A stretch of DNA of 64,000 bases from the NCBI RefSeq assembly GCF_009914755.1, contig NC_060946.1. One strand, 5' to 3'. Under the pieces are notes generated by a model. The model made no database searches. It was not told the DNA's origin and saw nothing but the letters and a program-made list of their open reading frames with translations. Below, in pieces: positions 3,900-59,800 of this stretch (its first letter is position 1; every line of letters begins with the position of its first letter). Origin of the DNA: the human T2T-CHM13v2.0 reference genome, Homo sapiens. The position numbers and the translations under genes are program-made.

Positions 3900-4245
3900 A
3901 AGCCTACAATGTGGATGAATCTTGAAAATATTGTGCTACGTGTTATGTCAGTCATAGCAGCTCACCTATTGTGCAATTCCGTTTATAGGAAATGTCCACA
4001 ATATGGAAATCTATGCATATGGGATTGATCGCACTAGGTAGTTGCTACCTAGGGCTGAGGGTCAGGGAGAGGGTTTGAGACAGAATGAGGAGTGACTAAT
4101 GTCTACAGGGTCTTTCTCTGGTCGGGGGTGATAAGACGTTTTACAATGGATTGCGAATTAAAATTGAATGTGCACAACCACAGGTATACTAAAAGCCACT
4201 CAATTCATGACCTTTAATGGGGGAATCTTACGTGGCGTAGTCTCA
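3900..4245 (+). mobile_element. Old L1MB/L1M-type LINE-1 3' fragment (one per unit)
   Basis: tggatgaatcttgaaaatattgtgcta...tattgtgcaattccgtttataggaaatgtcca...gagtgactaatg...ggggtgataa...tgcacaacc...tatactaaaagccact matches the familiar L1MB 3' end pattern. Confidence 0.75.
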
Positions 4246-4444
4246 TGGAGACCACGGCAGACATAGTGAGAGAGAAAAAGGTGAGTAAATATCTGAAACG
4301 GAGGCAGAAACAGAGAGAATGAAAAGCCCTGTGAATGGAAGGGAGAGCGAAAAGGGAAAATGGTCCTATTTACAAATGACAGATGTGAAACTGGGGTTCA
4401 CATCAACAGTGTCACTGCCAGGAAGGAGGGTCATGCTAGCCATG

Positions 4445-7400
4445 TCACCGGTAGTGTGGCCCGCAGGGACGCCGACCTGCTGGAGCGTCGTGCCAGCATG
4501 GGCTGTGGCAACCACGTGGGCCAGCAGGAGGTTCCCGCTGCACAGCTGTGGGGTGAGGATAGACTGGGTGGTGATATCGGCCATTACAGGGGCCTCTTCT
4601 GCTGGCAAGAGTGTGACAGTAGCAAGTAGATGGACAGGCCTGCGTGTGAGGATGGAATGCAGGAGGGGTTCTTGTGCGGCTGGGTGTGGGGCCCTCACGG
4701 GAACCGTGGAGAAATGGCCAGGTAACTGCGTCATGTGGGCTAGTAGATTGGCCAGGGCTTCGAACTGAAGGACGATAACGGGGAGTAGCTGTCAGGCCCT
4801 GGGGGTGCCTGAGTGTAAGTGGAGATGGGTTTGGGGTCACTGAGGGATGCGTGGGAGCCATCCCTGTATAGGTACAGGTCATAGGGAGATAGTCTCGTGA
4901 GGCCTGTGAGTGTCTAGGGTTGTCCTGGGTGCCTGGGGCTGACTGTGGCAGAAATCTGGGGAAGGCTGGAGAGAAGCTGGGAGACCCAGGAGAGTCCCTG
5001 AAGGCAGGGGGTGAAGAGGTGAAAGAAATGGGGGAGGGTTGCAGTAAGGTCCGTGAGTTTGTAGGTGATTCCTGGGTGCGGGAAGCTGACTCCAGGTGAA
5101 ATCTGGAGATGGTTGGAGAGTAGCTGAGAGAGACAGAAGAGTCCCTGAGGGCTGGGGGTGAGAACATGAGGGAGACGGGGGAGTAAGTCAGTGAAATTCG
5201 TGAGTTCGGTGGTGTATCGTGGGTGCCTGGAACTGACTCCAGCTGGAATCTAGAGAAGTTTTGAGAGTAGCTGAAGGAGACACAAGAGTCCCTGTGGGCT
5301 GAGGGCAAAGACCTGAGACAGACCAGGGAGGACCTCAGTGAAGTCTGTGAGTCTGTAGGTGATTCCGGAGTGTGGGAGGCTGACTCCCGCTGAAATCTGG
5401 GCGTGGTGGGAGAGTAGCTGGGACAGACAGGAGAGTCCCAGGGGGCTGCGGGTGAAGACGTGAGAGAGACTGGGGAGTAACTCAGTGAAATTGCTGAGTT
5501 GGTTGGTGATACCTGGGTGCCTGGAACTGACCCCCGCTGAAATCTGGGCATGGTTGGAGAGTAGCTGGGACACACAGGAGAGTCCCTGAGGGCTGGGGGT
5601 GAAGACATGAGCGAGACCGGGGAGTAACTGAGTGAAACTGGTGAGTTTGGTGGTGACTCCGGGGTGCCTGGAACTGACTCCAGCTGAAATGTGGGCGTGG
5701 TTGGAGAGTAGCTGGGACAGACAGGAGAGTCCCTGAGGACTGGTGAAGACATGAGAGAGACTGGAGAGTAATTGAGTGAAATTGGTGAGTTTGGTGGTGA
5801 TTCCTGGGTGCCTGGAACTGACTCCCGCTGAAGTGTGGGCATGGTTGGAGAGTAGCTGGGACAGACGGGAGAGTCCCTGAGGGATGGTGAAGACATGAGA
5901 GAGACTGGAGAGTAATTGAGTGAAATTGGTGAGTTTGGTGGTGATTTCTCGGTGCCTGCAACGGACTCCCGCTGAAGTGTGGGCGTGCTTGGAGAGTAGC
6001 TGGGACAGACAGGCGAGTCCCTGAGGGTTGGAGATAAAGACGTGCTAGAGACTGAGGAGTAACTGAGTGAAATTGGTGAGTTTGGTGGTGATTCCGGGGT
6101 GCCTGGAACGGACTCCAGCTGAAATGTGGGCGTGGTTGGAGAGTAGCTGGGACAGACGGGAGAGTCCCTGAGGGATGGTGAAGACATGAGAGAGACTGGG
6201 GAGTAACGCAGTGAAATTGGTGAGTTTGGTGGTGATTTCTGGGTGCCTGCAACGGACTCCCGCTGAAGTGTGGGCGTGCTTGGAGAGTAGCTGGGACAGA
6301 CAGGCGAGTCCCTGAGGGTTGGAGATAAAGACGTGCTGGAGACTGGGGAGTAACTCAGTGAAAGTGGTGGGCTTGGTGGTGATCCCAGGGTTCCTGGAAC
6401 TGACCCGCGCTGAAATGTGGGCGTGGTTGGAGAGTAGCTGGGACAGACTGGAGGGTCCGTAAGGGCTGGGGGTGAAGACGTGAGAGAGACTGGCGAGGAT
6501 CTCACTGAGGTCTGTGAGTTTGTAGGTGTTTCTGGGGTGTGGGGTACAGACTCCCGCTGAAATCTGGGCGTAGTTGGAGAGTAGCTGGGACAGACAGGAG
6601 AGTCATGGGTGGCTGGGGGTGAGCTGCTGGATGATGGCAGTAAGAACATATGGTACATTATTGATGAATGAGGTGACTGTGAAGAATCTCCAGAGGAGGA
6701 CACGGGAGAACACAATGACATGAGTGACTGTCCTGCTTGGTTAGGAAAGGGAAACGTAAAGTTGTGGAATTCTGTTGATGATGGATGTGAGAGTGGTGAA
6801 GCCCTGCGGGATGATGTAGAGGACTTCCACATCCCTGGTGAGGAGCTGCCCCTTGGGTCTGAGTTTCTGGGAGGGGAGAGGGAGAAGCTGGGTGAGGCAG
6901 GCATGAATCTTGAGGAGTCAGGGCTGGGGGACCGCTCATATTCTCCCGAGACCTGTGAGTCTCTGGGGGACTCCTGGGTGCATGGGGCTGACTCCCGCAG
7001 GAACCTGGGGATGGCTGGAGAGTAACTGGGAGCCACAGGAGGGTCCCTGAGGCCTGGGGGTGAAGAGATGCAAGACACAGGGGTGGAGCAGCGTGAGGCT
7101 CGTGAGTTTGTAGGTGATTCCTGGGTGTGGGGGGCTGACTCCAGCTGAAATCTGGGGTTGTTTGGAGAGTAGCTGGGAGACACAGGAGAACCCCCGAGAG
7201 CTGGGGGTGAGCTGCTGGGTGATGGCAGTAAGAACATGTGGTATATTATTGATGAACGTGGGGACTCTGAGGAGTCCTCAGAGGAGGACACAGCAGAGCC
7301 CAATGGCTTCATTGATTGCCCATCACGGTGAGGACAGGGAAATGGGAGCTTGTGGGATTCTGGTGATGACAGAGGTGAGTGTGGTGAAGCCCTAGGGGAT

Positions 7401-7570
7401 GGTGAATGGTAGTTCCGGATCCCTGGTGAGGAGCTTCCCCTTAAGCCGGAGTTTCTGAGAGGGGAGAGGGAGAAGCTGGGTGAGGCTCGCATGGACCTTG
7501 GGGTGTCCGTGCTGGGGGACCGTTCATAAGAAGAGCCAGACAAGACCTTACTGTTCTTAGGTGCAGACAT
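4445..7570 (-). CDS. Ser/Pro/Thr-rich tandem-repeat protein with CTD-like PSYSP motifs, 1041 aa
   Basis: Uninterrupted 3126-bp ORF. Its ATG is the first one downstream of the predicted TSS at 7890 and has A at -3. It contains 11 PSYSP motifs. Confidence 0.65.
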   Translation of the reverse strand: MSAPKNSKVLSGSSYERSPSTDTPRSMRASPSFSLSPLRNSGLRGSSSPGIRNYHSPSPRASPHSPLSSPESHKLPFPCPHRDGQSMKPLGSAVSSSEDSSESPRSSIIYHMFLLPSPSSSPPALGGSPVSPSYSPNNPRFQLESAPHTQESPTNSRASRCSTPVSCISSPPGLRDPPVAPSYSPAIPRFLRESAPCTQESPRDSQVSGEYERSPSPDSSRFMPASPSFSLSPPRNSDPRGSSSPGMWKSSTSSRRASPLSHPSSTEFHNFTFPFPNQAGQSLMSLCSPVSSSGDSSQSPHSSIMYHMFLLPSSSSSPPATHDSPVCPSYSPTTPRFQRESVPHTPETPTNSQTSVRSSPVSLTSSPPALTDPPVCPSYSPTTPTFQRGSVPGTLGSPPSPPLSLSYSPVSSTSLSPTLRDSPVCPSYSPSTPTLQRESVAGTQKSPPNSPISLRYSPVSLMSSPSLRDSPVCPSYSPTTPTFQLESVPGTPESPPNSPISLSYSSVSSTSLSPTLRDSPVCPSYSPSTPTLQRESVAGTEKSPPNSPISLNYSPVSLMSSPSLRDSPVCPSYSPTMPTLQRESVPGTQESPPNSPISLNYSPVSLMSSPVLRDSPVCPSYSPTTPTFQLESVPGTPESPPNSPVSLSYSPVSLMSSPPALRDSPVCPSYSPTMPRFQRGSVPGTQVSPTNSAISLSYSPVSLTSSPAAPWDSPVCPSYSPTTPRFQRESASHTPESPTDSQTSLRSSLVCLRSLPSAHRDSCVSFSYSQNFSRFQLESVPGTHDTPPNSRISLTYSPVSLMFSPPALRDSSVSLSYSPTISRFHLESASRTQESPTNSRTLLQPSPISFTSSPPAFRDSPGSPSFSPAFPRFLPQSAPGTQDNPRHSQASRDYLPMTCTYTGMAPTHPSVTPNPSPLTLRHPQGLTATPRYRPSVRSPGQSTSPHDAVTWPFLHGSREGPTPSRTRTPPAFHPHTQACPSTCYCHTLASRRGPCNGRYHHPVYPHPTAVQREPPAGPRGCHSPCWHDAPAGRRPCGPHYR
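4920..6620. repeat. 144/147-bp monomer satellite block (ACRO1-like) inside the ORF; an equivalent block is in every unit
   Basis: The anchor ggagagtagctgggaca recurs every 144 or 147 bp. The core shows a 291-bp dimer period (tgggacagacaggcgag at 6001 and 6292). Confidence 0.9.
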
Positions 7571-7645
7571 GATTAGGAAACCTGCAGCTCCCAGGGGCCC
7601 CCACTAATGTTCTAACTCGCAGAAGGAAGGAGTGTGTGTGCGTGT

Positions 7646-7677
<32 letters not shown>

Positions 7678-7885
7678 TTGTGTGTGTGCGGTGTGAGGTA
7701 TGGGCCCCTTAAGGAAATGGAAATCAACCAACCAATGGGACAGACAGACAGACAGACAGACAGAGATTCACTTGCCCAAGTGTTCTGTCCTGTCCTCTGA
7801 ATCCGCTTTCAAGTCGCAAGACGCTGTGAGCTCCAAGTCCACGCAGAGTCCGCCAAACGCTCCGGCCGCTGATCCGCTCCGCGAA

Positions 7886-7957
7886 GATCTGAGTACAGGC
7901 CAGCCAGGGTGGGTTTAAATAGCCTCGGGCGCAGCCTAGCAGCGGAAAGGGCGGAGC
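7886..7957 (-). promoter_or_regulatory. Putative Pol II core promoter, copy 2 (same in all units)
   Basis: TATTTAAA at 7921-7914, Inr TCAGATC at 7892-7886 (A+1 = 7890) and GC box at 7949-7957. Other TATA copies start at 14511, 20816, 27290, 33887, 40484, 47081, 53682 and 60144. Confidence 0.65.
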
Positions 7958-10894
7958 TTCACTCCTCCTTTCCATCAGTCACCCCCAACTTTCCCAGGCT
8001 ACACCTCGTAGGAAACTGTTCTCCTGCTTTGATTTCATGCGCCACCTTTGGGACAATCTAAGAACTTACAGGTTTTCTTGGCCAGATTTATTAGGAATTG
8101 TATGCACTGAAACACTGAAAACCAACTAGTGGTTCTGTGCTTCCCACGTTGTGGTTTTGACACCAGCAGCATCCTTGCCACAATCAAACCCCGGAGATCC
8201 GCAGATCTGTGTTGTAACAAGACCTCCCCCTGACCCTGAAGCATGGCAGTTGAAGAAGTCTTTCCGTGTAAGCGAAAAGACTTTGAAGAAAAGGTGGAGA
8301 TATGCGTTGTATAAACATTCTTTGGCTCTGGAACCACGTAGAGACTTGGGAGCCAGTTGGGTGGAGCATTCGTTGGATGAGGGTGCTCGGGTTAGGAATA
8401 TCAAGGTGTTTCTCCAGATAATCCAATCATCTAATTAAGATTCCAGTTATGCTCATCTGTTTTAAAATTCCGTTTGGGTAAATTCTTTTAGTCAGACTGA
8501 GAATGGCAAAGCCTCAACCCCAATTTCCAGGGAGGGTGGAGAGCCTCAGGTGGAGTTGATCACCAATAGCCTATGGTTTAACCCATCATGCCTATAGAAT
8601 GAGGTCTCCATCAAAACCCAAAAGGACTGGGTTCAGAGAGCTTCTGGATAACACTTCCTGGAAGGTAGTGCACCCCTCCCCGCATGCCGGGCCCCACATT
8701 TATTTCTGAACCTTGTGCAATGTCCGCTAAAATACAACGGCAAATGTAAGTGTTTCCCTGCGTGCTGTGAGCTCTTCCAGCAAATGAATGCAACTAAATC
8801 TGGGAGTGGTGGCAACCTGATTTATAGCCAGTTGCTGAGAAGCACAGGTAAAACAACGTAGGGCTTCCCATTGTTATTGGTGTGGGAGGCCTGTCTGGCG
8901 GGACTCGGCCCTTTGGAATCTAATGCTATGTCCCGGTAGATAGCGTCACCATTGAATTAGAAGACACACATATGTGGAGAATAATCTTTCTGGTCATTTA
9001 CTGCATGTCATATTTACAATATGTAATCAAATTCTTTATCCTGACCTTATGGCACCTGGGTTTAGGACCATGATTTGAACCAAACGTTGGTCTGTCACTT
9101 TCTGAGTTTGAAACTTTATTTTGCCTTTAGCGTTTTGCTATTGCTTTTTCGTTTTCTTTTGTTTCGTTTCGTTTCTAAGTTCTGGGGTATATGTGCAGGA
9201 TGTGCAGATTTGTTACTAAGGTAAACGTGTGCCATGGTGGTTTGCTGCACCTGTCAACCCGTCACCTAGGTATTAAGCCCAGCATGCAGTAGCTGTTTTT
9301 CTTAACGCTCTGCCTCCCGAAAGGCCCCAGTGTGTGTTGTTCCCCTTCCTGTGTCCATGGGATCTCACTTTTCAGCTCCCATTATAAGTGAGAAGGTGGC
9401 GTTTGGTTTTCTTTCCCTGGATTAGTTTGCTGACGATAATGACCACACATCACCACTGTTTTTGTTTTTTAGTATAAAGAGTAGTATTTTATTGAATAAG
9501 ATTTGCTCACAGAAAAATAAGCTTAAATCTACAATGAATGCCAGACCCTACAGCAGAAAGCAATTTTCTCACTTTTCCACACACAATGGTTCCTACTAAG
9601 TGAAAAAAAAGCCATAAAATTTCATTCACAAATGTACTACTCTGTCTCAAAACATCTCACGTAATCATGCACTGTACTAAAGCCATCAGATCAGTTCTTC
9701 AGTCAGGTTAAAGAAGTATCCCTCTAATAACTGACTTTTATAATGCTATCAATATCCACTCCCAATCAGTCTGCCATTGTTAATGGTGTACAGCATTACT
9801 GAATACAACGGAATTGATGACGCCCATATCCACAGACAAACCGTGACTTATGATGGTTTGATTTATGATTTTTCAACGTTATGATGGGTTTATTGGAATA
9901 TTAGATTCGTTTCTGAGTTACACTGGGTTTATGAGTATGCGACCCTACACTCCAGAAACAGCTGTATAAGGAAAAACAGGTGTACCTAATAAAAATATGC
10001 TTAGTGACTTGGGATAAACCAATAGATGTTCACAAGTGATGGAGAGCCGTGAAAGAGAGATAGCGGTAAATAGTTACAATAACACAATTTTCCTGCACCT
10101 GTCGAGGATTTCCCCCAAAAAACGCAGAATGTGGGATGCACCTAAGGCATATGAAAGAGAGAGGGCAGAAGGAGTAAGAGAGAAATAGGAGGAAGGAAGG
10201 AAGGAAGCAAGGAAGAAAGGAAGGAAGGAAAGAAGGAAGGAAGGACGGAAGGAAGGAAGGAAGGAAGGAAGGAAGGAAAGAAGGATGAAAGGAAGGAGAA
10301 AACACCGGTGTTACTAAAACCCCCCAAAAAATGGTTTCCCCCTGTGGGTAAGCCTACAATGTGGATGAATCTTGAAAATATTGTGCTACGTGTTATGTCA
10401 GTCATAGCAGCTCACCTATTGTGCAATTCCGTTTATAGGAAATGTCCACAATATGGAAATCTATGCATATGGGATTGATCGCACTAGGTAGTTGCTACCT
10501 AGGGCTGAGGGTCAGGGAGAGGGTTTGAGACAGAATGAGGAGTGACTAATGTCTACAGGGTCTTTCTCTGGTCGGGGGTGATAAGACGTTTTACAATGGA
10601 TTGCGAATTAAAATTGAATGTGCACAACCACAGGTATACTAAAAGCCACTCAATTCATGACCTTTAATGGGGGAATCTTACGTGGCGTAGTCTCATGGAG
10701 ACCACGGCAGACATAGTGAGAGAGAAAAAGGTGAGTAAATATCTGAAACGGAGGCAGAAACAGAGAGAATGAAAAGCCCTGTGAATGGAAGGGAGAGCGA
10801 AAAGGGAAAATGGTCCTATTTACAAATGACAGATGTGAAACTGGGGTTCACATCAACAGTGTCACTGCCAGGAAGGAGGGTCATGCTAGCCATG

Positions 10895-46844: not shown

Positions 46845-49800
46845 TTGTGTGTGTGCGGTGTGAGGTATGGGCCCCTTAAGGAAATGGAAATCAACCAACC
46901 AATGGGACAGACAGACAGACAGACAGACAGAGATTCACTTGCCCAAGTGTTCTGTCCTGTCCTCTGAATCCGCTTTCAAGTCGCAAGACGCTGTGAGCTC
47001 CAAGTCCACGCAGAGTCCGCCAAACGCTCCGGCCGCTGATCCGCTCCGCGAAGATCTGAGTACAGGCCAGCCAGGGTGGGTTTAAATAGCCTCGGGCGCA
47101 GCCTAGCAGCGGAAAGGGCGGAGCTTCACTCCTCCTTTCCATCAGTCACCCCCAACTTTCCCAGGCTACACCTCGTAGGAAACTGTTCTCCTGCTTTGAT
47201 TTCATGCGCCACCTTTGGGACAATCTAAGAACTTACAGGTTTTCTTGGCCAGATTTATTAGGAATTGTATGCACTGAAACACTGAAAACCAACTAGTGGT
47301 TCTGTGCTTCCCACGTTGTGGTTTTGACACCAGCAGCATCCTTGCCACAATCAAACCCCGGAGATCCGCAGATCTGTGTTGTAACAAGACCTCCCCCTGA
47401 CCCTGAAGCATGGCAGTTGAAGAAGTCTTTCCGTGTAAGCGAAAAGACTTTGAAGAAAAGGTGGAGATATGCGTTGTATAAACATTCTTTGGCTCTGGAA
47501 CCACGTAGAGACTTGGGAGCCAGTTGGGTGGAGCATTCGTTGGATGAGGGTGCTCGGGTTAGGAATATCAAGGTGTTTCTCCAGATAATCCAATCATCTA
47601 ATTAAGATTCCAGTTATGCTCATCTGTTTTAAAATTCCGTTTGGGTAAATTCTTTTAGTCAGACTGAGAATGGCAAAGCCTCAACCCCAATTTCCAGGGA
47701 GGGTGGAGAGCCTCAGGTGGAGTTGATCACCAATAGCCTATGGTTTAACCCATCATGCCTATAGAATGAGGTCTCCATCAAAACCCAAAAGGACTGGGTT
47801 CAGAGAGCTTCTGGATAACACTTCCTGGAAGGTAGTGCACCCCTCCCCGCATGCCGGGCCCCACATTTATTTCTGAACCTTGTGCAATGTCCGCTAAAAT
47901 ACAACGGCAAATGTAAGTGTTTCCCTGCGTGCTGTGAGCTCTTCCAGCAAATGAATGCAACTAAATCTGGGAGTGGTGGCAACCTGATTTATAGCCAGTT
48001 GCTGAGAAGCACAGGTAAAACAACGTAGGGCTTCCCATTGTTATTGGTGTGGGAGGCCTGTCTGGCGGGACTCGGCCCTTTGGAATCTAATGCTATGTCC
48101 CGGTAGATAGCGTCACCATTGAATTAGAAGACACACATATGTGGAGAATAATCTTTCTGGTCATTTACTGCATGTCATATTTACAATATGTAATCAAATT
48201 CTTTATCCTGACCTTATGGCACCTGGGTTTAGGACCATGATTTGAACCAAACGTTGGTCTGTCACTTTCTGAGTTTGAAACTTTATTTTGCCTTTAGCGT
48301 TTTGCTATTGCTTTTTCGTTTTCTTTTGTTTCGTTTCGTTTCTAAGTTCTGGGGTATATGTGCAGGATGTGCAGATTTGTTACTAAGGTAAACGTGTGCC
48401 ATGGTGGTTTGCTGCACCTGTCAACCCGTCACCTAGGTATTAAGCCCAGCATGCAGTAGCTGTTTTTCTTAACGCTCTGCCTCCCGAAAGGCCCCAGTGT
48501 GTGTTGTTCCCCTTCCTGTGTCCATGGGATCTCACTTTTCAGCTCCCATTATAAGTGAGAAGGTGGCGTTTGGTTTTCTTTCCCTGGATTAGTTTGCTGA
48601 CGATAATGACCACACATCACCACTGTTTTTGTTTTTTAGTATAAAGAGTAGTATTTTATTGAATAAGATTTGCTCACAGAAAAATAAGCTTAAATCTACA
48701 ATGAATGCCAGACCCTACAGCAGAAAGCAATTTTCTCACTTTTCCACACACAATGGTTCCTACTAAGTGAAAAAAAAGCCATAAAATTTCATTCACAAAT
48801 GTACTACTCTGTCTCAAAACATCTCACGTAATCATGCACTGTACTAAAGCCATCAGATCAGTTCTTCAGTCAGGTTAAAGAAGTATCCCTCTAATAACTG
48901 ACTTTTATAATGCTATCAATATCCACTCCCAATCAGTCTGCCATTGTTAATGGTGTACAGCATTACTGAATACAACGGAATTGATGACGCCCATATCCAC
49001 AGACAAACCGTGACTTATGATGGTTTGATTTATGATTTTTCAACGTTATGATGGGTTTATTGGAATATTAGATTCGTTTCTGAGTTACACTGGGTTTATG
49101 AGTATGCGACCCTACACTCCAGAAACAGCTGTATAAGGAAAAACAGGTGTACCTAATAAAAATATGCTTAGTGACTTGGGATAAACCAATAGATGTTCAC
49201 AAGTGATGGAGAGCCGTGAAAGAGAGATAGCGGTAAATAGTTACAATAACACAATTTTCCTGCACCTGTCGAGGATTTCCCCCAAAAAACGCAGAATGTG
49301 GGATGCACCTAAGGCATATGAAAGAGAGAGGGCAGAAGGAGTAAGAGAGAAATAGGAGGAAGGAAGGAAGGAAGCAAGGAAGAAAGGAAGGAAGGAAAGA
49401 AGGAAGGAAGGACGGAAGGAAGGAAGGAAGGAAGGAAGGAAGGAAGGAAAGAAGGATGAAAGGAAGGAGAAAACACCGGTGTTACTAAAACCCCCCAAAA
49501 AATGGTTTCCCCCTGTGGGTAAGCCTACAATGTGGATGAATCTTGAAAATATTGTGCTACGTGTTATGTCAGTCATAGCAGCTCACCTATTGTGCAATTC
49601 CGTTTATAGGAAATGTCCACAATATGGAAATCTATGCATATGGGATTGATCGCACTAGGTAGTTGCTACCTAGGGCTGAGGGTCAGGGAGAGGGTTTGAG
49701 ACAGAATGAGGAGTGACTAATGTCTACAGGGTCTTTCTCTGGTCGGGGGTGATAAGACGTTTTACAATGGATTGCGAATTAAAATTGAATGTGCACAACC

Positions 49801-56674: not shown

Positions 56675-59600
56675 TCACCGGTAGTGTGGCCCGCAGGGAC
56701 GCCGACCTGCTGGAGCGTCGTGCCAGCATGGGCTGTGGCAACCACGTGGGCCAGCAGGAGGTTCCCGCTGCACAGCTGTGGGGTGAGGATAGACTGGGTG
56801 GTGATATCGGCCATTACAGGGGCCTCTTCTGCTGGCAAGAGTGTGACAGTAGCAAGTAGATGGACAGGCCTGCGTGTGAGGATGGAATGCAGGAGGGGTT
56901 CTTGTGCGGCTGGGTGTGGGGCCCTCACGGGAACCGTGGAGAAATGGCCAGGTAACTGCGTCATGTGGGCTAGTAGATTGGCCAGGGCTTCGAACTGAAG
57001 GACGATAACGGGGAGTAGCTGTCAGGCCCTGGGGGTGCCTGAGTGTAAGTGGAGATGGGTTTGGGGTCACTGAGGGATGCGTGGGAGCCATCCCTGTATA
57101 GGTACAGGTCATAGGGAGATAGTCTCGTGAGGCCTGTGAGTGTCTAGGGTTGTCCTGGGTGCCTGGGGCTGACTGTGGCAGAAATCTGGGGAAGGCTGGA
57201 GAGAAGCTGGGAGACCCAGGAGAGTCCCTGAAGGCAGGGGGTGAAGAGGTGAAAGAAATGGGGGAGGGTTGCAGTAAGGTCCGTGAGTTTGTAGGTGATT
57301 CCTGGGTGCGGGAAGCTGACTCCAGGTGAAATCTGGAGATGGTTGGAGAGTAGCTGAGAGAGACAGAAGAGTCCCTGAGGGCTGGGGGTGAGAACATGAG
57401 GGAGACGGGGGAGTAAGTCAGTGAAATTCGTGAGTTCGGTGGTGTATCGTGGGTGCCTGGAACTGACTCCAGCTGGAATCTAGAGAAGTTTTGAGAGTAG
57501 CTGAAGGAGACACAAGAGTCCCTGTGGGCTGAGGGCAAAGACCTGAGACAGACCAGGGAGGACCTCAGTGAAGTCTGTGAGTCTGTAGGTGATTCCGGAG
57601 TGTGGGAGGCTGACTCCCGCTGAAATCTGGGCGTGGTGGGAGAGTAGCTGGGACAGACAGGAGAGTCCCAGGGGGCTGGGGGTGAAGACGTGAGAGAGAC
57701 TGGGGAGTAACTCAGTGAAATTGCTGAGTTGGTTGGTGATACCTGGGTGCCTGGAACTGACCCCCGCTGAAATCTGGGCATGGTTGGAGAGTAGCTGGGA
57801 CACACAGGAGAGTCCCTGAGGGCTGGGGGTGAAGACATGAGCGAGACCGGGGAGTAACTGAGTGAAACTGGTGAGTTTGGTGGTGACTCCGGGGTGCCTG
57901 GAACTGACTCCAGCTGAAATGTGGGCGTGGTTGGAGAGTAGCTGGGACAGACAGGAGAGTCCCTGAGGACTGGTGAAGACATGAGAGAGACTGGAGAGTA
58001 ATTGAGTGAAATTGGTGAGTTTGGTGGTGATTCCTGGGTGCCTGGAACTGACTCCCGCTGAAGTGTGGGCATGGTTGGAGAGTAGCTGGGACAGACGGGA
58101 GAGTCCCTGAGGGATGGTGAAGACATGAGAGAGACTGGAGAGTAATTAAGTGAAATTGGTGAGTTTGGTGGTGATTTCTCGGTGCCTGCAACGGACTCCC
58201 GCTGAAGTGTGGGCGTGCTTGGAGAGTAGCTGGGACAGACAGGCGAGTCCCTGAGGGTTGGAGATAAAGATGTGCTAGAGACTGAGGAGTAACTGAGTGA
58301 AATTGGTGAGTTTGGTGGTGATTCCGGGGTGCCTGGAACGGACTCCAGCTGAAATGTAGGCGTGGTTGGAGAGTAGCTGGGACAGACGGGAGAGTCCCTG
58401 AGGGATGGTGAAGACATGAGAGAGACTGGGGAGTAACGCAGTTAAATTGGTGAGTTTGGTGGTGATTTCTGGGTGCCTGCAACGGACTCCCGCTGAAGTG
58501 TGGGCGTGCTTGGAGAGTAGCTGGGACAGACAGGCGAGTCCCTGAGGGTTGGAGATAAAGACGTGCTGGAGACTGGGGAGTAACTCAGTGAAAGTGGTGG
58601 GCTTGGTGGTGATCCCAGGGTTCCTGGAACTGACCCGCGCTGAAATGTGGGCGTGGTTGGAGAGTAGCTGGGACAGACTGGAGGGTCCGTAAGGGCTGGG
58701 GGTGAAGACGTGAGAGAGACTGGCGAGGATCTCACTGAGGTCTGTGAGTTTGTAGGTGTTTCTGGGGTGTGGGGTACAGACTCCCGCTGAAATCTGGGCG
58801 TAGTTGGAGAGTAGCTGGGACAGACAGGAGAGTCATGGGTGGCTGGGGGTGAGCTGCTGGATGATGGCAGTAAGAACATATGGTACATTATTGATGAATG
58901 AGGTGACTGTGAAGAATCTCCAGAGGAGGACACGGGAGAACACAATGACATGAGTGACTGTCCTGCTTGGTTAGGAAAGGGAAACGTAAAGTTGTGGAAT
59001 TCTGTTGATGATGGATGTGAGAGTGGTGAAGCCCTGCGGGATGATGTAGAGGACTTCCACATCCCTGGTGAGGAGCTGCCCCTTGGGTCTGAGTTTCTGG
59101 GAGGGGAGAGGGAGAAGCTGGGTGAGGCAGGCATGAATCTTGAGGAGTCAGGGCTGGGGGACCGCTCATATTCTCCCGAGACCTGTGAGTCTCTGGGGGA
59201 CTCCTGGGTGCATGGGGCTGACTCCCGCAGGAACCTGGGGTTGGCTGGAGAGTAATTGGGAGCCACAGGAGGGTCCCTGAGGCCTGGGGGTGAAGAGATG
59301 CAAGACACAGGGGTGGAGCAGCGTGAGGCTCGTGAGTTTGTAGGTGATTCCTGGGTGTGGGGGGCTGACTCCAGCTGAAATCTGGGGTTGTTTGGAGAGT
59401 AGCTGGGAGACACAGGAGAACCCCCGAGAGCTGGGGGTGAGCTGCTGGGTGATGGCAGTAAGAACATGTGGTATATTATTGATGAACGTGGGGACTCTGA
59501 GGAGTCCTCAGAGGAGGACACAGCAGAGCCCAATGGCTTCATTGATTGCCCATCACGGTGAGGACAGGGAAATGGGAGCTTGTGGGATTCTGGTGATGAC

Positions 59601-59800
59601 AGAGGTGAGTGTGGTGAAGCCCTAGGGGATGGTGAATGGTAGTTCCGGATCCCTGGTGAGGAGCTTCCTCTTAAGCCGGAGTTTCTGAGAGGGGAGAGGG
59701 AGAAGCTGGGTGAGGCTCGCATGGACCTTGGGGTGTCCGTGCTGGGGGACCGTTCATAAGAAGAGCCAGACAAGACCCTACTGTTCTTAGGTGCAGACAT
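56675..59800 (-). pseudogene. 1041-codon-class copy with a premature stop (TCA>TAA, S453*)
   Basis: The + strand reads gttaaattgg at 58441 where other copies read gtgaaattgg. This splits the ORF into in-frame pieces of 452 aa and 580 aa. Confidence 0.65.

What the first reader, a model, noticed from the sequence alone, without database searches (positions are those of the whole stretch)
7570..7957. Correctly spaced TATA-Inr-GC box promoter pointing into the ORF, with no upstream ATG
Seen: on the minus strand TATTTAAA begins exactly 31 nt before the A of a perfect YYANWYY initiator (TCAGATC, A at 7890). An Sp1-type GGGCGGAGC sits about 60 nt upstream, in a CpG-retaining patch. There is no ATG in the 320 nt between this TSS and the ORF start, and the start codon has a purine at -3. 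This support for a real gene is independent of the ORF itself, and the arrangement is present in all ten promoter copies.
Basis: partly seen in the sequence, partly recalled or inferred. Interest (0 to 1): 0.7.

Follow-up and report, generated by a model that had tools for sequence, protein, structure and literature searches.

The report
Hidden embryonic gene inside ACRO satellite
Each unit of the human ACRO "satellite" array carries a TATA-type promoter layout, a DUX4 motif that DUX4 binds in related copies, and a long reading frame shared with monkeys, so it is likely an unannotated, roughly 200-copy protein-coding gene switched on in early embryos.

Summary
TATTTAAA (one mismatch to TATAWAWR) lies 31 nt before the A of TCAGATC at 7890, a GC box is at -67, and no ATG occurs before 7570. 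Shuffles give this triple in 0.5-1% of units. The ten window copies are identical over the core, so they count once. The window is the ACRO composite array. New evidence points to a real gene. A DUX4 motif sits at -539, and published DUX4 ChIP-seq peaks fall on the homologous motif in three chr2 paralogs. The core promoter varies less than upstream DNA in diverged paralogs. The 992-1090-codon Ser/Pro-rich ORF has few frameshift indels (2 per 399 substitutions, against 29 per 620 in flanks). Marmoset, baboon and colobus models start at the same Met. Homologs at 43-48% identity keep the start, the leader and a C-terminal CPSxCYCH motif. An ATTAAA follows the stop. [quoted passage not shown] Against: no TSS or protein evidence was found, dN/dS is about 1, monkey models are partly broken, and the bound chr2 sites showed no significant activation. 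The protein is not an RPB1.

The parts
8419..8429 (+). DUX4-type double-homeodomain motif TAATCCAATCA, 539 nt upstream of the predicted TSS, once per unit
   Evidence: 10 of 10 units. Chance in the 700 nt upstream is 0.6%. Kept in 18 of 20 dispersed copies. DUX4 ChIP peaks lie on the homologous motif in 3 chr2 paralogs.
7949..7957 (+). GC box (Sp/KLF type), -67 to -59, reversed relative to transcription
   Evidence: Intact in 14 of 20 dispersed copies, so it is the least conserved element.
7914..7921 (-). TATA-like box TATTTAAA at -31
   Evidence: Present in all 20 fetched copies, but they were found with a pattern containing it.
7886..7892 (-). Initiator YYANWYY; predicted +1 A at 7890
   Evidence: Matches YYANWYY in 20 of 20 dispersed copies (19 TCAGATC, 1 CCAGATC) and lies outside the search pattern.
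7571..7890 (-). ATG-free 5' leader with (TGTC)n and (CA)n tracts; a GT at 7771-7770 could open a short 5'UTR intron (untested)
   Evidence: The homologous ATG is the first ATG in 17 of 20 copies. The leader translation resembles the N-terminal extensions of P0049, P0083 and P0099.
4445..7570 (-). 1041-codon ORF: 23% Ser, 18% Pro, 87 SP and 19 TP sites, C-terminal Cys/His motif (CPSTCYCH)
   Evidence: 8 of 10 window units are full length (992-1090 aa), 1 stops at codon 452 and 1 runs off the window. Homologs.
4923..6623 (-). ACRO1 147-bp (49-codon) satellite array inside the ORF, in frame
   Evidence: period 147, 11.6 copies. Copy-number changes between paralogs are 144, 147, 288 or 435 bp.
4213..4218 (-). 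ATTAAA poly(A)-type signal 227 nt after the stop, followed by GU-rich sequence
   Evidence: Present at +226 or +227 in 12 of 13 complete dispersed copies.

Best explanation
The element is likely the core promoter of a multicopy, probably single-coding-exon gene that makes up most of the ACRO composite repeat, and it is predicted to fire when DUX4 binds the -539 motif at embryonic genome activation. Shown directly: the TATA/Inr/GC layout, the DUX motif, the ATG-free leader, the ORF and the ATTAAA. Shown in published data at paralogs: DUX4 occupancy of this motif. Inferred steps: DUX4 opens the unit, which is reported hypomethylated in the male germline; TFIID uses TATA and Inr to start near 7890; a capped, polyadenylated mRNA of about 3.7 kb is translated from ATG 7570 into a disordered ~1000-aa Ser/Pro protein. 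ACRO1 would then be an in-frame 49-codon internal expansion of an older, shorter gene (350-360 aa forms exist). What the protein does is the weakest step (about 0.25): it would most likely act as a heavily phosphorylated, CTD-like scaffold or decoy for proline-directed kinases, phosphatases and their readers in cleavage-stage nuclei.
For: Motif triple is rare in shuffles. Non-CpG variable columns across 17 aligned copies: core 29 of 180 without the query 20-mer, against 123 of 359 at -1000..-600 (Fisher p=7e-6) and 105 of 429 at -600..-130 (p=0.024). DUX motif in 18 of 20 copies; 205 genome matches against 4 for the control. In Table S1 of PMC3836709, peaks at hg19 chr2:133,041,212 and 133,047,117 are 5,905 apart, exactly the spacing of the two ACRO-unit motifs at CHM13 chr2:132,719,986 and 132,725,891. 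A neighbour peak maps within 10 bp. The peak at chr2:162,137,203 maps to a third paralog, with neighbours within 19 and 63 bp. Frameshift-size indels: 2 per 399 substitutions in the ORF, 29 per 620 in flanks, p=9e-5. About 93 of 114 scored genomic copies have an open frame of at least 892 codons (counted by hand; best-scoring 114 of 1,510 candidates). Marmoset protein: same Met, 67% identity over 593 colinear residues with 5 gaps. Baboon and colobus models start at the same Met. P0083 matches both ends (64/141 and 88/183) and has no closer human match than ACRO units. Literature: 4-cell peak (PMC6545021), DUX4 induction (PMC8990217 and PMC11467316, both citing Hendrickson 2017), sperm hypomethylation and embryo expression (PMC5832720).
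Against: No 5'-end evidence. Searches at the predicted chr2 start sites found nothing in the supplements of PMC4569847 or PMC8990217 (4 of 6 '4931' rows unseen, one file cut). No protein evidence was found. dN/dS between human paralogs is 0.5-1.9, and 0.78-0.88 for the most diverged, so there is no clear amino-acid constraint. Human-marmoset identity (71%) is at or below neutral simulation (75-83%). Only 6 of 13 complete dispersed copies are fully open; both complete chr19 copies are broken. Baboon and colobus models end at 282-291 aa, and marmoset residues ~607-672 read like a shifted frame. The three bound chr2 sites showed no significant activation within 1 kb (one 'Not expressed', FDR 0.62 and 0.87). 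A DUX4 nanopore study has no ACRO1 in its text or supplements. Boots 2020 found no stable ACRO1 RNA in HeLa, and ACRO1 inserts blocked elongation in cis. CpG loss in the core (23 of 44) does not differ significantly from upstream (51 of 82; p=0.34). Gene conversion can restore ORFs.
Confidence: 0.72

Rival explanations
1. The promoter is real and DUX4-responsive, but in humans the product that matters is RNA (a satellite lncRNA that binds Pol II or shapes nucleolar or chromocentre chromatin), and the ORF is a relic kept open by homogenisation.
For: dN/dS is about 1. ACRO1 RNA holds Pol II-binding aptamers and blocks elongation in cis (PMC7714431). Old World monkey models are truncated. Gene conversion can restore ORFs.
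Against: Frameshifts are depleted about 9-fold against flanks. Start, frame and both protein ends are kept in marmoset and in homologs at 43-48% identity. Repeat-unit gains and losses are all multiples of three.
Confidence: 0.14
2. The unit is a dead processed or duplicated gene carried passively in a macrosatellite; the promoter motifs are inherited but inactive, and ACRO1 reads come from read-through.
For: No gene is annotated in the window (hub note). Dispersed copies are often broken (7 of 13). No start-site evidence. No significant activation at the bound chr2 sites.
Against: The core is conserved relative to flanks. DUX4 occupies the motif. Most array copies are open. Expression is stage-specific in print.
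Confidence: 0.09
3. The motifs belong to the neighbouring MER21B LTR, or are a chance coincidence.
For: The composite contains an ERVL-type MER21B (PMC12767296 preprint), and DUX4 often uses LTR promoters (PMC3836709). The patterns were chosen after the fact.
Against: The primers of PMC2588610, which span the stretch from ACRO to the edge of MER21, map to 7214-8419, so the core lies between the two. The ChIP table labels the three chr2 motifs 'Unique'. The leader is shared with distant homologs. Shuffle P is 0.5-1%. No repeat library was on hand to place the LTR edge.
Confidence: 0.05

Closest known systems
ACRO composite / ACRE (ACRO_Comp; ACRO1 147-bp satellite with L1PA10, MER21B, L1MB8)
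   Same: This is that repeat: 6.3-6.6 kb units, a 147-bp internal array, arrays on acrocentric short arms, chr3 and chr4. Boots 2020 noted that the translated consensus resembles the Pol II CTD, and PMC12746033 calls it a 'putative protein coding gene'.
   Different: The passages read treat it as a geneless megasatellite (PMC2588610) or a primate-specific composite (PMC7714431, acrocentric preprint). None of them described a promoter, a DUX4 site, a full ORF with start, stop and poly(A) signal, frame constraint, or homologs more distant than marmoset.
Macrosatellite-borne, cleavage-stage genes such as DUX4 in D4Z4 and USP17L in RS447 (the latter recalled, not tested)
   Same: One ORF with its own promoter per tandem unit, copy-number variable, homogenised, silent in soma, tied to the DUX4 programme.
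   Different: The product has no Pfam domain and is predicted disordered (Atlas pLDDT 0.40 for the marmoset protein). The ORF itself contains the annotated satellite. Copy number is about 200 or more in CHM13.
RPB1/POLR2A C-terminal domain; database label 'DNA-directed RNA polymerase II subunit RPB1-like'
   Same: Rich in Ser, Pro, Thr and Tyr; 19 YSP and 9 YSP[TS][TSM]P words. Monkey models carry this automatic name.
   Different: The repeat is 49 aa with about one YSPxxP, not tandem heptads. No polymerase domain. The ends are unique and carry a Cys/His motif. The name is a composition artefact.

Membership tests
TATA/Inr focused Pol II core promoter | TATAWAWR-like box starting about -31 | tested here: met
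   TATTTAAA at -31, one mismatch to the recalled consensus.
TATA/Inr focused Pol II core promoter | Initiator YYANWYY at +1 | tested here: met
   10 of 10 window copies and 20 of 20 dispersed copies.
TATA/Inr focused Pol II core promoter | Focused capped 5' ends at +1 | tested here: inconclusive
   No rows at the predicted chr2 starts in two embryo-study supplements. These are hg19-era differential lists and the acrocentric copies are absent from older references.
ACRO composite (ACRE) | About 6-kb unit with a 147-bp ACRO1 array, on acrocentric short arms, chr3 and chr4 | tested here: met
   published FISH primers match each unit.
ACRO composite (ACRE) | L1PA10, MER21B and L1MB8 fragments | not testable with these tools
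   No Dfam library; names taken.
Direct DUX4 target gene | TAAYBBAATCA motif near the promoter | tested here: met
   -539, once per unit; P=0.006 in shuffles. The consensus is recalled.
Direct DUX4 target gene | DUX4 ChIP occupancy | tested here: met
   Met at three chr2 paralogs. Not testable for this chr22 array, since multi-mapping reads were removed and the table was cut at 49,232 of 63,795 rows.
Direct DUX4 target gene | Induction by DUX4 and cleavage-stage expression | tested here: inconclusive
   Family-level statements in print, but no significant activation at the chr2 peaks and no ACRO1 in PMC8120133.
Protein-coding gene | Reading frame kept beyond neutral expectation | tested here: met
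Protein-coding gene | dN/dS below 1 | tested here: not met
   0.5-1.9 among 13 human paralogs; 0.78-0.88 for the most diverged.
Protein-coding gene | Translation evidence (Ribo-seq, peptides) | not testable with these tools
   No such data in the tools; literature search returned nothing on ACRO1.
RPB1/POLR2A | Tandem YSPTSPS heptads | tested here: not met
   Only 9 windows reach 5 of 7 matches in 1041 aa; the period is 49 aa.
RPB1/POLR2A | RNA_pol_Rpb1 domains | tested here: not met
   No Pfam family for the ORF or five homologs.

The most novel reading that the evidence does not exclude
The most acrocentric-specific repeat of the great apes is an amplified array of an old mammalian gene. DUX4 switches on some 200 copies at genome activation to make a disordered CTD-mimic protein that tunes Pol II phosphorylation or condensates in the cleavage embryo, with copy number varying between generations, and FSHD muscle mis-expresses it.
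Probability: 0.3. Interest if true: 0.92.

Novelty: new member of a known kind. Interest (0 to 1): 0.74.

Why it matters
It would turn a catalogued satellite into one of the highest-copy protein-coding families of the human genome, missing from the annotation of this window and tied to DUX4 and embryonic genome activation. It explains the reported 4-cell ACRO1 RNA as mRNA from a defined promoter and gives exact sites to test. [quoted passage not shown] It also questions the 'primate-specific' label and the RPB1-like database name.

Tried and rejected
Ten-copy recurrence as evidence: rejected, the copies are identical. Upstream ATG at about -84, which opens a 121-aa frame in 2 window units: rejected, it lies before +1 and is changed in 6 of 16 aligned dispersed copies. 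CpG-retention test across paralogs: not significant. Amino-acid purifying selection: not seen. Pfam on 3 window frames and 5 homologs, and PDB sequence search with P0083: nothing significant. ESM Atlas with the marmoset protein: feature hits of 0.89 and 0.83 to unnamed low-complexity clusters and no fold match, leads only. Unnamed near-identical hits (e.g. P0001-P0003) were not counted as homology evidence, since human repeats contaminate microbial assemblies (PMC6581058). chr4 DUX4 peaks (hg19 49,309,157 and 49,316,533) lie in the 4p11 array region but their spacing did not match CHM13 (7,376 against about 7,660), so they were not used. chr19 peaks lie beyond the cut table. A 5'UTR intron could not be settled: the donor GT is kept in 17 of 17 aligned human copies but seems absent in P0099. 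Folding and complex prediction were not run because the protein is predicted disordered. Literature searches found no paper describing this promoter or gene. Most subscription papers and bioRxiv supplements are not covered, and Hendrickson 2017 was not seen.

Full report
Observation. On the minus strand TATTTAAA (7921-7914) starts 31 nt before the A of TCAGATC (7890). The GC box at 7949-7957 reads GGGCGGAGC on the + strand. The first ATG is at 7570, with A at -3 and T at +4. The box has one mismatch to the recalled TATAWAWR consensus. The triple of TATA, Inr and GC box occurs once in the unit and in 0.5-1% of 400 dinucleotide shuffles; with the extra condition of an ATG-free leader within 1 kb of the ORF it occurs in 1 of 3,000. 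These patterns were picked after the fact. All ten window copies are identical from -120 to +100, so they add no independent support.

Context. The window is a head-to-tail array of 6.3-6.6 kb units, each with a 147-bp array. This is the ACRO composite. Published FISH primers for it match every unit. A TATA-anchored pattern has 305 genome matches against 13 for the control, and a DUX-motif-anchored pattern 205 against 4. Listed matches lie on chr1, 2, 3, 4, 13, 14, 15, 19 and 21, besides this chr22 array. Each unit has a minus-strand ORF from the ATG named in the finding: 8 of 10 are 992-1090 codons, one stops at 452 and one leaves the window. An ATTAAA lies 227 nt after the stop.

Diverged copies. 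I fetched 20 dispersed copies, chosen from the exact matches, so TATA conservation itself is ascertained. The Inr matches in 20 of 20, the GC box in 14 of 20 and a DUX motif at -532 to -541 in 18 of 20. The homologous ATG is the first ATG in 17 of 20. In an alignment of 16 of these plus the window unit (four copies left out as near-duplicates or partial), non-CpG columns vary in 29 of 180 core positions outside the query, 105 of 429 at -600..-130 (p=0.024) and 123 of 359 at -1000..-600 (p=7e-6). CpG loss does not differ (p=0.34).

DUX4. Its chance in the 700 nt upstream is 0.6%. Table S1 of PMC3836709 (DUX4 ChIP-seq, hg19, unique reads; 49,232 of 63,795 rows held) has peaks at chr2:133,041,212 and 133,047,117. 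They are 5,905 apart, the exact spacing of the two ACRO-unit motifs in CHM13, and the next peak maps within 10 bp. The peak at chr2:162,137,203 maps to a third paralog, with neighbouring peaks within 19 and 63 bp on one-mismatch motifs. All three are labelled 'Unique'. None was significantly activated within 1 kb (not expressed; FDR 0.62; FDR 0.87). Two chr4 peaks could not be mapped, and chr19 was beyond the cut.

Coding. Among 14 paralogs, unique frameshift-size indels number 2 per 399 substitutions in the non-array ORF and 29 per 620 in flanks (p=9e-5). Array changes are whole 144-147-bp units. Six of 13 complete dispersed copies are fully open, one stops at 973 of 994 and six are broken, including both complete chr19 copies. 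About 93 of the 114 best-scoring genomic copies have open frames of at least 892 codons (hand count). A marmoset protein of 832 aa starts at the same Met and is colinear over 593 residues at 67% identity; it also matches the C-terminus, although residues ~607-672 look frame-shifted. A neutral simulation puts the chance of 606 codons staying open in both lineages at 3e-8 or less; the indel rate was assumed, and arrays with gene conversion raise the true chance. Baboon and colobus models share the start but end at 282-291 aa. A profile search returned unnamed proteins far more distant. P0083 (355 aa) matches the first 150 residues at 64/141 and the last 190 at 88/183, and its best human matches are ACRO units at 45-48%. 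P0069 keeps the CPSxCYCH motif. The N-terminal extensions of P0083, P0099 and P0049 resemble the translated human leader just before the Met. I infer a lineage older than simians; the records name no species. Against coding: dN/dS among human paralogs is 0.5-1.9, and marmoset identity is no higher than neutral, so the frame is constrained but the residues are not, or they are under positive selection.

Mechanism. Most likely DUX4 binds at -539, TFIID uses TATA and Inr, and an mRNA of about 3.7 kb is translated into a disordered protein with 87 SP and 19 TP sites and a Cys/His tail (Atlas pLDDT 0.40 for the marmoset form). Motifs and ORF are shown, DUX4 occupancy is shown at paralogs, and initiation and translation are inferred. 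A role as CTD-like phospho-scaffold or decoy is a hypothesis. Short 358-361-aa forms (L033, P0019) and P0083 suggest that ACRO1 is an internal expansion of an older gene rather than a piece of POLR2A mRNA, as PMC7714431 proposed.

What is in print, and what I saw. PMC7714431 (parts 2 and 3 of 5): defines the unit, notes CTD likeness of the translated consensus, finds no non-primate homologue and no stable HeLa RNA, and shows that inserts block elongation. PMC2588610 (passages): a megasatellite without genes. Preprints 10.1101/2021.07.12.451456 and 10.64898/2025.12.22.696095 (passages): composite repeat, most acrocentric-specific class, no mention of RPB1 or CTD in the latter. PMC12746033 (passages, supplement search empty): 'putative protein coding gene', with copy loss between generations. 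PMC6545021, PMC5832720, PMC8990217, PMC11467316 and 10.64898/2025.12.22.696056 (passages): 4-cell peak, sperm hypomethylation, DUX4 induction, FSHD hypomethylation. PMC8120133 (passages and supplement searches): no ACRO1. PMC4569847 and PMC8990217 (supplement searches): no 5' ends at the predicted chr2 sites, with some rows unseen. The marmoset genome preprint has no ACRO mention. PMC6581058 (passages). Hendrickson 2017 was not seen. Nine searches found no description of this promoter or gene; bioRxiv supplements and subscription papers may hold one, and annotation may exist on copies outside this window.

Verdict. It is best filed as a new member of the macrosatellite-borne, DUX4-linked embryonic gene class, hinted at in print but not characterised in what I could read. 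It is not an RPB1. Confidence in a functional promoter driving a protein-coding gene is 0.72; interest 0.74.

Noticed in passing
window 58417-59800 (minus strand): One unit's ORF stops at codon 452 while its promoter is intact; the chr3 copy L034 stops at the same codon (453 of 1091), which suggests a shared allele between chr22 and chr3 arrays.
   Followed up: partly
L033 (G000:C2:161737000-161745000): A solitary chr2 copy has an intact, in-frame 358-codon short ORF lacking the ACRO1 array, a DUX4 ChIP peak and an A-rich insertion-like stretch in place of the ATTAAA. It is uniquely mappable, so it is the easiest copy to test.
   Followed up: partly
L047-L050 (G000:C19:47229700-47287300): A cluster of four promoter copies on chr19q, among the most diverged from the window (84-92% identical); L047 has a second DUX motif. 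It may be the ancestral site; synteny was not tested.
   Followed up: partly
window 6066-7208 approx. (ORF codons ~15-200 and ~211-395): The ORF's N-terminal part is an old 588-bp (4 x 147, 196-codon) duplication at about 78% identity, also present in the marmoset protein.
   Followed up: partly
window 10190-10297 and equivalents: An (AGGA)n microsatellite of 27-34 copies lies in each unit; GGAA repeats are ETS-fusion binding sites and ACRO1 RNAs appear in Ewing sarcoma papers (search listing only).
   Followed up: no
window 4319-4768 (+) and 4366-4734 (-): Short overlapping ORFs of 149 and 122 codons at the 3' end of each unit; no significant Pfam match.
   Followed up: partly
P0014 and other protein records: An ACRO-derived protein is deposited under a Plasmodium RPB1 name, likely host contamination; the RPB1-like label spreads through databases.
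   Followed up: no
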